Of a DNA stretch of 64,000 bases, positions 30,001-33,000 are shown in pieces. Within the stretch, counting starts at the first letter, position 1; every line of letters begins with the position of its first letter. Made by a program: the position numbers. The DNA comes from Escherichia coli O127:H6 str. E2348/69. GTDB taxonomy: Bacteria > Pseudomonadota > Gammaproteobacteria > Enterobacterales > Enterobacteriaceae. Location of the stretch: NCBI RefSeq assembly GCF_000026545.1, contig NC_011601.1; one strand, given 5' to 3'.

Positions 30001-33000
30001 GCCAAACTCCGCGACAAGTGGACCCAGCTCGAAATCAACCGTAACAAGCAACAGGCAGGCGTGACAGCCAGCAAACCAAAACTCGACCTGACAAACACTG
30101 ACTGGATTTACGGGGTGGATTTATGAAAAACATCGCCGCACAGATGGTTAACTTTGACCGTGAGCAGATGCGTCGGATCGCCAACAACATGCCGGAACAG
30201 TACGACGAAAAGCCGCAGGTACAACAGGTAGCGCAGATCATCAACGGTGTGTTCAGCCAGTTACTGGCAACTTTCCCGGCGAGCCTGGCTAACCGTGACC
30301 AGAACGAACTGAACGAAATCCGCCGCCAGTGGGTTCTGGCTTTCCGGGAAAACGGGATCACCACAATGGAACAGGTTAACGCAGGAATGCGCGTAGCCCG
30401 TCGGCAGAATCGACCATTTCTGCCATCACCCGGGCAGTTTGTTGCATGGTGCCGGGAAGAAGCATCCGTTATCGCCGGACTGCCAAACGTCAGCGAGCTG
30501 GTTGATATGGTTTACGAGTATTGCCGGAAGCGAGGCCTGTATCCGGATGCGGAGTCTTATCCGTGGAAATCAAACGCGCACTACTGGCTGGTTACCAACC
30601 TGTATCAGAACATGCGGGCCAATGCGCTTACTGATGCGGAATTACGCCGTAAGGCCGCAGATGAGCTTGTCCATATGACTGCGAGAATTAACCGTGGTGA
30701 GTCGATCCCTGAACCAGTAAAACAACTTCCTGTCATGGGCGGTAGACCTCTAAATCGTGCACAGGCTCTGGCGAAGATCGCAGAACTCAAAGCTAAGTTC
30801 GGACTGAAAGGAGCAAGTGTATGACGGGCAAAGAGGCAATTATTCATTACCTGGGGACGCATAATAGCTTCTGTGCGCCGGACGTTGCCGCGCTAACAGG
30901 CGCAACAGTAACCAGCATAAATCAGGCCGCGGCTAAAATGGCACGGGCAGGTCTTCTGGTTATCGAAGGTAAGGTCTGGCGAACGGTGTATTACCGGTTT
31001 GCTACCAAGGAAGAACGGGAAGGAAAGATGAGCACGAACCTAATTTTTAAGGAGTGTCGCCAGAGTGCCGCGATGAAACGGGTATTGGCGGTATATGGAG
31101 TTAAAAGATGACCATCTACATCACTGAGCTAATAACAGGCCTGCTGGTAATCGCAGGCCTTTTTATTTGGGGGAGAGTAAATCGTGGCTGACTGGCAAAT
31201 ACCAATCATCATTCTTGCCGGAGCTTCGCTGGTTGCTGGCTTTATCCTGCTGAAGAAGCATAAAGACCGTGATCAAAAAGTCGAAGTTCTCTATGGGTAT
31301 CCGGCGAACAGCACAACATGGCTGACTATTTACCACTACCGAAAATCAGGCCGTTGGGTATTCGAATGGGATGATCTGTTTGCTGAAAAGCGACCAAAGT
31401 CATGGGGAGACATCAGCGAATGCATGATGTTTGAAGAAAGAAAATCCGGCGCAACCCGAGAAGAGTTTAACGAAGCGTGGAGGCGATTAAGTGAGAGGGG
31501 GTATCAATGAGCAGAATTAAGTCGAGGTAACAATGAAGCAAATATACATGCTTCGCAACGAAGCAATCAGAAACAACGCCATAGACGCAATACTCTCACT
31601 TCCGATCGACGACAAGTCACCTCACGAAGTCCACATTAAAGAACCCAGGCGGAGCAATCCTCAAAACCGCCTTATGTGGGCGTTATTGCAGGACGTATCA
31701 CGTCAGGTGCTTTGGCATGGAAAGAGACTTGCGCCGGAGGACTGGAAAGATCTGTTCACTGCCCTGTGGCTTAAGACCAAAAAACTGGAGCAACGAAGTG
31801 CGCCTGGTATCGACGGTGGCGTTGTCATGCTTGGCGTGCGTACCAGCAAAATGCGAAAGGCCAGCATGACTGAGCTTATCGAAATCATGTTCTGGTTCGG
31901 CTCAGAGCGCAACGTGCGGTGGAGTGATGACTCCCGGCGAGAGTATGAATGGTCACAACGAAAAGGTAGGGCTGCATGACTATCAAATCAAATACGCCAG
32001 CACACGACAAGGACTGCTGGCAAACGCCGCTTTGGCTTTTTGATGCACTGGATATTGAGTTTGGATTCTGGCTGGATTCGGCAGCGAGCGACAAAAATGC
32101 TCTGTGCGCTCACTGGCTAACTGAGGCTGACGACGCGCTAAATTCTGAGTGGGTAAGCCACGGTGCAATCTGGAATAACCCACCGTACAGCAATATCAGG
32201 CCGTGGGTGGAAAAAGCCGCTGAGCAGTGTATACAACAACGACAGACGGTAGTGATGCTTGTGCCAGAGGATATGTCAGTCGGATGGTTCAGCAAGGCTC
32301 TGGAGAGTGTCGACGAAGTTCGTATTATCACTGATGGACGGATTAATTTTGTCGAACCATCGACAGGACTGGAGAAGAAGGGAAACAGCAAAGGTTCCAT
32401 GCTGCTGATTTGGCGACCGTTCATCAGTTCTCGACGGATGTTTACTACTGTATCCAAAGCGGCATTGATGGCGATCGGGCAGGGCGTCAGGAGGGCAGCA
32501 TGAGACGACAGCGACGAAGTTTCACCGACATCATCTGCGAAAACTGCAAATACCTTCCAACGAAACGCTACAGAAATAAACGCAAGCCAATCCCAAAAGA
32601 ATCTGACGTAAAAACCTTCAACTACACGGCTCACCTGTGGGATATCCGGTGGCTAAGACATTGTGCGAGGAAAACAAGGTGATTGACCAAAATCGAAGTT
32701 ACGAACAAGAAAGCGTCGAGCGAGCTTTAACGTGCGCTAACTGCGGTCAGAAGCTGCATGTGCTGGAAGTTCACGTGTGTGAGCACTGTTGCGCAGAACT
32801 TATGAGCGATCCGAATAGCTCAATGTACGAGGAAGAAGACGATGAATGAGTTAATAAATGGCAATGCCATAAAAATGACAAGCATTGAAATCGCTGAGTT
32901 GGTTGGTAAGCGTCATGACAATGTGAAACGTACCATCGAAACGCTGGCTAAAAATGGTGTTATCCGGCTTCCTCAAATTGAGGATTGTGGAAGAATCAAT

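What the first reader, a model, noticed from the sequence alone, without database searches (positions are those of the whole stretch)
31126..31510. Extra membrane-anchored gene inserted after the tR2-like terminator between ren and ninB
In lambda ren is followed directly by ninB. Here a hairpin terminator (31126-31158) and a 108-aa ORF with a single N-terminal transmembrane helix and GTG start intervene. Unknown function; candidate moron.
Basis: partly seen in the sequence, partly recalled or inferred. Interest (0 to 1): 0.3.

Follow-up and report, generated by a model that had tools for sequence, protein, structure and literature searches.

The report
Known uncharacterised phage nin-region membrane gene
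The extra 108-codon gene after the lambda tR2 terminator is real and under selection, but it is an already catalogued phage accessory gene of unknown function (Shigella phage Sf6 gene 46 family), one of several alternative cassettes at a known mosaic junction and probably not a prophage-expressed "moron".

Summary
Window 30821-31177 (ren, the tR2 hairpin, a GGGGGAGAG ribosome-binding site) matches lambda with 4 mismatches in 357 nt. A 355-bp cassette (31178-31532) then intervenes before ninB. It carries a GTG-started 108-aa ORF (31184-31510).

The ORF is a real gene. pN/pS is 0.03-0.14 across 12 alleles. RefSeq annotates it with the same start (WP_000796283.1, E. coli E2348/69). It matches PHROG 5903 end to end (E 9e-76) and is 98% identical to Sf6 gene 46 protein. 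107 of 5,426 complete E. coli genomes carry it.

It recurs without the membrane anchor in jumbo phage Goslar, the 112-kb phage KookSpook and about 85 Skatevirus/seszw-type phages. The gene has no promoter or terminator of its own. It therefore reads as a delayed-early, N-dependent lytic-cycle accessory gene rather than a classical moron.

In 121 surveyed loci the slot after tR2 holds ninB directly or one of five other small genes. Function is untested. Novelty and interest are low.

The parts
30821..31111 (+). ren, the last gene before the junction; nearly identical to lambda ren
   Evidence: ORF list; PHROG 142 Ren-like, E 3.6e-42; RefSeq 'protein ren'; alignment to lambda
31108..31191 (+). 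Conserved mosaic 'boundary sequence' (equivalent to bsq6 of Sf6). It coincides with a 27-codon NinA-like mini-ORF (MTIYITELITGLLVIAGLFIWGRVNRG). Its ATG overlaps the ren stop (ATGA) and its TGA overlaps the ORF's start (GTGGCTGA).
   Evidence: Translation; 406 phage records match this stretch and most match only this stretch; Sf6 and HK630 annotations 'NinA', 'bsq6; boundary sequence'
31137..31169 (+). tR2-type intrinsic terminator: 8-bp G+C-rich stem, 8-nt loop, then TTTTTATTT
   Evidence: Terminator scan; RNA fold shows the same stem; identical to lambda tR2 region; annotated tR2 in Sf6
31169..31177 (+). GGGGGAGAG, a shared Shine-Dalgarno region and the last bases in common with lambda
   Evidence: Sequence; lambda and window diverge at 31178; in lambda the same motif precedes the ninB ATG
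31178..31532 (+). The extra cassette relative to lambda (355 bp): spacer, 108-aa ORF and the 22-nt spacer with the ninB ribosome-binding site
   Evidence: Left end. Right end: other phages carrying this ninB allele become homologous exactly at the ninB ATG, 31533
31184..31510 (+). 108-aa ORF, GTG start. Sf6 gp46 / PHROG 5903 family; identical to RefSeq WP_000796283.1.
   Evidence: purifying selection
31199..31252 (+). Codons 6-23 (IPIIILAGASLVAGFILL): predicted transmembrane anchor. N-flank MADWQ has net charge -1; C-flank KKHKDRDQK has net charge +3, giving N-out/C-in.
   Evidence: Hydropathy; AlphaFold2 helix 5-27; same charge bias in 22 of 29 TM-bearing homologues
31277..31495 (+). Codons 32-104: conserved alpha/beta domain (four strands plus a C-terminal helix). 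Invariant residues are Y37 G38 Y39 P40 T48 Y50 H51 R53 E61 L65 F66 R70. Predicted cytoplasmic.
   Evidence: Alignment A1; model pLDDT above 90 over most of this region; same domain without a TM segment in Goslar, KookSpook and INT55
31533..31979 (+). ninB (Orf recombination mediator), the next gene of the operon
   Evidence: Pfam NinB E 4.1e-48

Best explanation
The ORF is one of several interchangeable accessory ('nin-region') gene cassettes that lambdoid phages carry immediately after the conserved tR2 boundary sequence of the early-right (pR) operon. It has no transcription signals of its own. It would therefore be transcribed only when N-modified RNA polymerase reads through tR2, as a delayed-early gene of lytic growth or induction. 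It would be translated from the GGGGGAGAG ribosome-binding site that serves ninB in lambda.

The product is a small bitopic inner-membrane protein. A short acidic N-terminus faces outward, one helix spans the membrane, and a roughly 75-residue conserved alpha/beta domain faces the cytoplasm. My inference is that this domain acts by binding a host (or competing-phage) macromolecule or ligand, and that the anchor holds it at the inner face of the membrane. That would make it a dispensable host-takeover or counter-defence function rather than a lysogenic-conversion function.

Shown: the gene, its selection, its family, its position, and the absence of its own recognisable signals. Inferred: topology, timing of expression, and mode of action. 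Unknown: the target.
For: Real, selected gene: pN/pS 0.03-0.14, 58 clusters of homologues, and an identical RefSeq CDS.

Cassette at a mosaic joint: lambda identity ends at 31177 and ninB-allele identity resumes at 31533. Among 121 loci with the exact tR2 41-mer, the first gene after it is ninB in 60, a 68-aa hydrophobic protein in 25, this ORF in 16, and three other small ORFs in 20.

No own signals: no promoter-like site upstream and no + strand terminator downstream.

Topology: hydropathy 2.28, AlphaFold2 helix, positive-inside bias (mean -0.7 on the N-flank against +1.3 on the C-flank; 22 of 29 members).

Cytoplasmic, lytic-cycle domain: the domain occurs without a TM segment in jumbo phage Goslar, the 112-kb KookSpook and about 85 Skatevirus/seszw records. 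A branch carries a C..H...CxxC pattern that looks like a zinc site, and Cys-ligated zinc sites are typically cytoplasmic (established knowledge).

Early-gene context elsewhere: directly after PolA, primase-helicase or DnaB genes, or inside arrays of small early-type genes.

Dispensable: 2 of 17 copies carry premature stops, and lambda and most relatives lack the gene.
Against: There are no expression data of any kind. The promoter scan detects only near-consensus sigma-70 sites, so a weak or activator-dependent promoter would be missed.

Topology and membrane insertion are predictions, and the TM helix has only moderate model confidence (pLDDT about 65).

No target, ligand or phenotype is known. 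'Binds something at the membrane' is an inference from architecture. PADLOC, NCBIfam and Pfam give nothing, and fold searches give no relative.

Not all relatives are membrane-tethered, so the anchor may be incidental to the core function.
Confidence: 0.6

Rival explanations
1. Classical moron or lysogenic-conversion gene. The membrane protein is expressed from the prophage and benefits the lysogen, for example by superinfection exclusion at the inner membrane, as P22 SieA, T4 Imm or HK97 gp15 do.
For: It is extra DNA between genes that are adjacent in lambda. It is a small membrane protein. It persists in 107 of 5,426 complete E. coli genomes, nearly always full length. A terminator lies just upstream.
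Against: No promoter-like site lies between ren and the ORF and no terminator lies after it. The upstream terminator belongs to the conserved backbone, not to the insert. The gene sits inside the CI-repressed pR operon. The conserved domain is predicted cytoplasmic and recurs, without an anchor, in Goslar and KookSpook. There are no PADLOC hits.
Confidence: 0.12
2. Replication-linked accessory factor. The domain modulates or localises phage or host DNA replication, for example by tethering a replication component to the membrane or binding a host replication protein.
For: The gene repeatedly sits directly after replication genes of unrelated types: lambda O/P/ren here, a DnaB-type helicase in Sf6, a primase/helicase in Oslo, PolA in L008, Toprim/AAA_25 in L011. 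In Skatevirus INT55 it lies between a primase/helicase and a helicase.
Against: That position is also simply the start of the accessory region in lambdoid phages. The partner replication genes are of unrelated families, so a specific partner is unlikely. In a 239-kb contig and in KookSpook the neighbours are only small unknown genes. There is no similarity to any replication protein.
Confidence: 0.15
3. Non-functional or spurious ORF: a chance reading frame or decaying remnant at a recombination joint.
For: No known function. Two of 17 surveyed copies have premature stops. The start codon is GTG.
Against: pN/pS is 0.03-0.14. Twelve residues are invariant across homologues of 34-98% identity. 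The family is found in unrelated phage types. The domain models confidently with AlphaFold2 (pLDDT above 90).
Confidence: 0.02

Closest known systems
Shigella phage Sf6 gene 46 protein (AAQ12235) / Salmonella phage vB_SosS_Oslo AMBK_59 / PHROG 5903 / RefSeq WP_000796283.1
   Same: Same protein: 98% amino-acid identity, 108 aa, GTG start, placed directly after the tR2 boundary sequence. Full-length PHROG match with E 9e-76.
   Different: Nothing of substance. The flanks differ. In Sf6 the gene follows a DnaB-type helicase and three more small genes precede ninB. Here it follows lambda-type O/P/ren and ninB is next. All these entries are 'hypothetical protein'; none has been characterised.
Lambda nin region and tR2 (ren - tR2 - ninB ... 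Q)
   Same: Same operon architecture, the same ren, the same tR2 hairpin and the same ribosome-binding site (4 mismatches in 357 nt). Tight gene packing, with an ATGA stop/start overlap between ren and the NinA-like mini-ORF (nin-region description in PMC8022706).
   Different: Lambda has no counterpart of the 108-aa gene; ninB starts 7 nt after GGGGGAGAG.
68-aa hydrophobic protein of HK022, HK630 and HK75 (first gene after tR2)
   Same: Occupies the same slot. In HK630 the sequence is identical to the window through GTGGCTGA, so it uses the same GTG start; in HK022 the ORF also opens with GTG. It is also predicted to be a small membrane protein.
   Different: No sequence similarity beyond the first two codons. 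It is hydrophobic almost throughout, with no soluble domain.
Morons of HK97/HK022-type phages (Juhala et al. 2000 concept, from my own knowledge)
   Same: 'More DNA': a gene present between two genes that are adjacent in a close relative.
   Different: It lacks the defining promoter-gene-terminator unit. It lies in an early lytic operon rather than in the late or structural region.
Uncharacterised proteins of phage Goslar (Goslar_00199), KookSpook (CDS0038) and the Skatevirus/seszw group
   Same: Same conserved core domain (42-45% identity over about 75 residues; BFVD Foldseek E 1e-7 and 5.5e-5).
   Different: They have no transmembrane segment. Instead they have a short basic/aromatic N-terminal segment with a high helical hydrophobic moment (0.65-0.72). 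They occur in phages of quite different types and genome sizes.

Membership tests
PHROG 5903 / Sf6 gp46-like proteins | Full-length match to the family profile | tested here: met
   E 9.1e-76, residues 1-108 on profile positions 1-108 of 108
PHROG 5903 / Sf6 gp46-like proteins | Conserved core motif YGYP...TWLTIYH.R...FEWDDLF..RP | tested here: met
   All 12 invariant columns of alignment A1 are present in the window protein
PHROG 5903 / Sf6 gp46-like proteins | Known biochemical or biological function | not testable with these tools
   The family is listed as 'unknown function'. No paper was found by accession or name.
Moron (autonomous extra gene of lambdoid phages) | Inserted between genes that are adjacent in a related phage | tested here: met
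   Lambda has ren-tR2-ninB with nothing between
Moron (autonomous extra gene of lambdoid phages) | Own promoter upstream of the gene | tested here: not met
   No sigma-70-like site in 30000-32300; the only hit in 30000-33000 is at 32301. This is a consensus scan only, so weak promoters are not excluded.
Moron (autonomous extra gene of lambdoid phages) | Own terminator downstream of the gene | tested here: not met
   No + strand terminator-like site between 31510 and ninB or beyond. The ninB ATG lies 22 nt after the stop codon.
Moron (autonomous extra gene of lambdoid phages) | Expression from the repressed prophage | not testable with these tools
   Needs transcript or protein data from a lysogen
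Lambda tR2 intrinsic terminator | Sequence identity to lambda tR2 at the same position after ren | tested here: met
   Identical hairpin and T-run; annotated as tR2 in Sf6
Lambda tR2 intrinsic terminator | G+C-rich stem-loop followed by a U-run | tested here: met
   8-bp stem, 6 G-C pairs, then TTTTTATTT. The fold of the 83-nt context is not exceptional as a whole (z = -0.66), as expected for one short hairpin.
Lambda tR2 intrinsic terminator | Terminates transcription and is overridden by N | not testable with these tools
   Rests on lambda literature, not on this sequence
Bitopic (signal-anchor, N-out/C-in) inner-membrane protein | One hydrophobic segment of at least 17 residues with high hydropathy | tested here: met
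   Kyte-Doolittle 19-residue mean 2.28 at residues 5-23; helix 5-27 in the model
Bitopic (signal-anchor, N-out/C-in) inner-membrane protein | Positive-inside charge bias | tested here: met
   -1 against +2 in the window protein; 22 of 29 TM-bearing homologues show the same bias
Bitopic (signal-anchor, N-out/C-in) inner-membrane protein | Experimental membrane insertion and topology | not testable with these tools
   Needs fusion reporters or fractionation
Known anti-phage defence or superinfection-exclusion proteins | Sequence match to a described defence protein | tested here: not met
   No PADLOC family at E <= 1

The most novel reading that the evidence does not exclude
The conserved ~75-residue domain is a previously unrecognised fold. 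Enterobacterial phages of very different kinds deploy it early in infection against a host factor, for example as a new type of counter-defence or host-takeover protein. These kinds include temperate lambdoid and P22-like phages, about 46-kb siphophages, a 112-kb phage and a nucleus-forming jumbo phage. Temperate phages would have added a transmembrane anchor, and others an amphipathic N-terminal helix or a zinc knuckle, to place or stabilise it.
Probability: 0.25. Interest if true: 0.5.

Novelty: already known. Interest (0 to 1): 0.2.

Why it matters
For annotation the result is ordinary. The slot after tR2 is a known mosaic joint, and the gene is a catalogued hypothetical protein.

Its modest value is as a lead. 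It is a tightly conserved small domain with a dozen invariant aromatic and charged residues. It has no Pfam family and no structural relative. It is shared by temperate and apparently virulent phages of E. coli, Salmonella and Shigella. It comes in three N-terminal versions: membrane anchor, amphipathic helix and putative zinc knuckle.

Small early phage proteins of this type have repeatedly turned out to be inhibitors of host defence or host machinery. It would therefore be a cheap candidate for such screens.

Tried and rejected
Family searches. Pfam, NCBIfam and PADLOC scans of the protein gave nothing. The only Pfam line was FG-GAP_3 at E 0.083, far below its cut-off.

Solved-structure sequence searches. 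The single sequence and a family profile gave only E of about 1.

Fold searches.
- Foldseek against viral models returned only family members.
- The AlphaFold-database library was not available.

Exhaustive profile search of 1.84 billion representatives. This found only 36 clusters. One was a 3,904-aa protein with 14 partial matches. It turned out to be a serine/proline-rich repetitive protein matching only '...EELFDENRP...', so I discarded it as spurious.

DUF1660. One zinc-type relative touches DUF1660 at E 0.0025, below any useful threshold.

Rfam. The only hit is a sub-threshold Trp-leader-like match over the mini-ORF and terminator (20 bits against a gathering score of 41), which I treat as a generic leader-plus-hairpin resemblance.

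Literature. Searches by accession, PHROG number and 'Sf6 gp46' found no functional study.

Other readings considered and rejected.
- Sec signal peptide: the N-region is acidic, the hydrophobic stretch is 18 residues, and it is followed by KKHK rather than a cleavage site.
- Holin or spanin: the gene is far from the lysis cassette, and the predicted topology is the opposite of an i-spanin.
- Beta-clamp or SSB-tail mimicry by 'WDDLF': the model places E61-D63 at the end of strand 57-63, so the motif abuts the folded core and is not a free peptide.
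Full report
WHAT IS THERE

Window 29227-34979 is the early-right operon of a lambdoid prophage. 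In order it contains:
- O (29227-30126)
- P (30123-30824)
- ren (30821-31111)
- a terminator hairpin
- a 108-codon ORF (31184-31510)
- ninB (31533-31979; Pfam NinB E 4e-48)
- a Dam-type methyltransferase
- further nin genes and Q

The whole stretch is 100% identical to a prophage of E. coli E2348/69. RefSeq annotates the same 108-aa GTG-started CDS there as hypothetical protein WP_000796283.1.

THE TERMINATOR

The hairpin is real. It has an 8-bp stem at 31137-31144 and 31153-31160, an 8-nt loop, and then TTTTTATTT.

It is not part of the inserted material. From the ren ATG to GGGGGAGAG (30821-31177) the window differs from lambda at only 4 of 357 positions. The hairpin is lambda tR2 itself, and it is annotated as such in phage Sf6.

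This 85-nt stretch (31107-31191) is a conserved mosaic 'boundary sequence'. It matched 406 of 50,697 phage records, and most of them matched only this part of the query.

It also coincides with a 27-codon NinA-like mini-ORF. The mini-ORF's ATG overlaps the ren stop, and its TGA overlaps the start of the 108-aa ORF (GTGGCTGA).

THE INSERT

Lambda continues from GGGGGAGAG into ninB after 7 nt. The window diverges at 31178. Other phages that carry this ninB allele become homologous again exactly at the ninB ATG, 31533. The extra cassette is therefore 31178-31532, 355 bp, and holds one gene.

The ORF's GTG lies 6 nt after GGAGAG, with an in-frame TAA one codon upstream. It uses the ribosome-binding site that serves ninB in lambda.

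tblastn of the protein against lambda 39500-41600, HK022 32000-36000 and the HK630 nin region finds nothing (best E 0.2).

IS IT A GENE?

Yes. Against 12 other alleles, synonymous differences outnumber non-synonymous ones several-fold. pS is 0.10-0.17, pN is 0.004-0.022, and the ratio is 0.03-0.14. Homologues down to about 40% identity keep 12 invariant residues.

The family is small. It has 58 clusters at 90% identity among 5.8 billion proteins, and 36 representatives among 1.84 billion. It corresponds to PHROG 5903, 'unknown function' (E 9e-76, full length).

The nearest named relatives are Sf6 gene 46 protein and Salmonella phage Oslo AMBK_59, both 98% identical. 107 of 5,426 complete E. 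coli genomes carry the gene at 95% identity or more, always on the chromosome.

THE SLOT

I collected loci containing the exact 41-nt tR2 sequence from IMG/VR. I then read the first ORF after GGGGGAGAG in 121 usable loci:

| First ORF after GGGGGAGAG | Loci |
|---|---|
| ninB directly, as in lambda | 60 |
| 68-aa very hydrophobic protein (HK022, HK630, HK75) | 25 |
| this 108-aa ORF | 16 |
| 71-aa protein | 13 |
| 92-aa protein | 5 |
| 60-aa protein | 2 |

In HK630 the 68-aa protein's gene is identical to the window through GTGGCTGA, so it uses the same GTG start. The position is thus a recombination joint where alternative small genes are exchanged. This matches published descriptions of nin regions as a pool of non-essential genes shuffled among lambdoid phages (PMC5630979, PMC8022706).

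THE PROTEIN

Residues 6-23 (IPIIILAGASLVAGFILL) form the only hydrophobic segment. The best 19-residue Kyte-Doolittle mean is 2.28, and AlphaFold2 models a helix at 5-27.

The N-flank is acidic (MADWQ) and the C-flank basic (KKHKDRDQK). The same bias holds in 22 of 29 TM-bearing homologues, with means of -0.7 and +1.3. This predicts a short N-terminus outside and the rest of the protein in the cytoplasm. It does not look like a cleavable signal peptide.

Residues 32-104 model confidently (pLDDT above 90 for most) as three consecutive strands (32-39, 46-52, 57-63), a short fourth strand (81-84) and a C-terminal helix.

The invariant residues are largely aromatic or charged: Y37, G38, Y39, P40, T48, Y50, H51, R53, E61, L65, F66 and R70. 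W62, D63 and D64 are nearly invariant.

NO KNOWN RELATIVE OF THE DOMAIN

- Pfam, NCBIfam and PADLOC gave no family.
- PDB sequence searches gave E of about 1.
- Foldseek against viral models returned only family members.

For so small a domain these negatives are weak evidence of a new fold. They do show that no characterised homologue can be used to transfer a function.

RELATIVES IN OTHER PHAGES

The core domain occurs in:
- jumbo phage Goslar (Goslar_00199)
- the 111.9-kb phage KookSpook
- about 85 records of roughly 46-kb Skatevirus/seszw-type phages of Salmonella, E. coli and Klebsiella

Identity over about 75 residues is 42-45%.

These versions have no TM segment. Their short N-terminal segments are basic and aromatic with a high helical hydrophobic moment (0.65-0.72). 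Examples are MGKFLGKILKCF and MFLDNIFKRIF. These could be in-plane membrane anchors, but that is an inference.

Another branch has C-x4-H in the N-terminal segment and CxxC in the second hairpin, a likely zinc site. By my simple classifier, 85 family members divide into 50 TM, 13 amphipathic, 10 zinc-like, 10 other and 2 too short. The TM class is inflated by near-identical sequences.

CONTEXT

In lambdoid-type loci the gene follows whatever replication module is present:
- lambda O/P/ren in this window
- a DnaB-type helicase in Sf6
- a primase/helicase in Oslo
- PolA in L008
- Toprim/AAA_25 in L011
- DnaB in L012

In INT55 it lies between a primase/helicase and a helicase. In KookSpook, Goslar, a 239-kb contig and L138 it sits among runs of small unknown genes. 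The common denominator is an early or accessory gene block, not a particular partner gene.

HOW IT MOST LIKELY WORKS

Shown:
- It is a selected protein-coding cassette at the tR2 joint.
- It has no promoter-like or terminator-like signal of its own.
- It shares the upstream ribosome-binding site.

Inferred from lambda biology (established knowledge of pR, N and tR2):
- It is silent in the repressed prophage.
- It is transcribed as a delayed-early gene once N allows read-through of tR2.

Inferred from sequence:
- It is an N-out/C-in membrane protein with a cytoplasmic effector domain.

Inferred from distribution:
- The domain also occurs in phages that do not look temperate, so it serves lytic growth.
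- It is absent from most relatives, and 2 of 17 copies carry premature stops, so it is dispensable.

I therefore favour a host-takeover or counter-defence type of accessory protein that binds its target at the inner face of the membrane. My confidence is about 0.6 for the whole package, higher for the genetic part and lower for the mode of action.

Rivals, with my confidence in each:
- Prophage-expressed moron or exclusion protein: 0.12.
- Replication-linked accessory factor: 0.15. This is partly a special case of the favoured reading.
- Spurious ORF: 0.02.

COMPARISON WITH WHAT IS KNOWN, AND VERDICT

The gene is a member of the Sf6 gp46 / PHROG 5903 family. It has been in the databases as a hypothetical protein since the Sf6 genome record. 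It meets the 'extra DNA' criterion of a moron but fails the promoter and terminator criteria that I could test. Its function is untested anywhere I could search.

The finding is correct as an observation, ordinary as genome architecture, and already known as an entity. The residual interest lies in the uncharacterised conserved domain.

Noticed in passing
window 31108-31191: The tR2 hairpin lies entirely inside a 27-codon NinA-like mini-ORF that is stop/start-coupled to ren (ATGA) and overlaps the next gene's GTG (GTGGCTGA). A ribosome translating it would cover the hairpin, so translation might modulate termination. Rfam gives only a sub-threshold Trp-leader-like match here (20 bits against a gathering score of 41). 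The peptide's hydrophobicity may simply reflect the G+C-rich stem.
   Followed up: partly
proteins P0001-P0014; corresponds to window 31169-31183: Some database entries of 133-137 aa are in-frame fusions of the NinA-like peptide to the 108-aa protein ('...LFIWGEGSVADWQIP...'). The cause is a one-base length change in the G-run of the ribosome-binding site in genomes with the Sf6-type spacer. They are rare (1-2 member sequences each, against 65-244 for the 108-aa forms). They may be homopolymer errors, or real two-TM variants. In this window a TAA at 31178 blocks such a fusion.
   Followed up: partly
L015 (HK022 NC_002166 32000-36000), 437-1048: In HK022 a 203-aa ORF is inserted inside the NinA-like mini-ORF, splitting the boundary sequence. 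The 3' part of the mini-ORF, tR2 and the 68-aa hydrophobic gene follow it. It looked to me like an HNH/AP2-type homing endonuclease, but I did not run a family search.
   Followed up: no
L002 (HK630) about 2078-2284; L015 (HK022) 1096-1302: The alternative occupant of the same slot is a 68-aa, almost wholly hydrophobic protein (MAELIFSALR...). It starts at the same GTG. HK630 annotates it 16 codons too short.
   Followed up: partly
L042 and L115 (IMG/VR loci): Two of 17 copies of the 108-aa gene carry premature stop codons. In L042 codon 5 is CAA changed to TAA.
   Followed up: no
proteins P0068, P0071-P0073, P0075-P0077, P0080, P0081, P0085: A distant branch of the family has C-x4-H near the N-terminus and CxxC in the second beta-hairpin, a probable zinc knuckle. 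One of the 29 members of alignment A4 weakly touches Pfam DUF1660 ('Prophage protein', E 0.0025); the tool did not say which member.
   Followed up: partly
window 32842-33564 and 33564-34213: The nin region of this prophage also carries a KilAC-domain antirepressor-like gene, a DUF1364 gene and rusA in place of lambda ninG/ninH-type genes. This is a further example of cassette exchange in the same operon.
   Followed up: no
L006 (Goslar MK327938) 2410-2429: In Goslar the homologue (Goslar_00199) is also immediately preceded by an annotated putative terminator. This may be coincidence.
   Followed up: no
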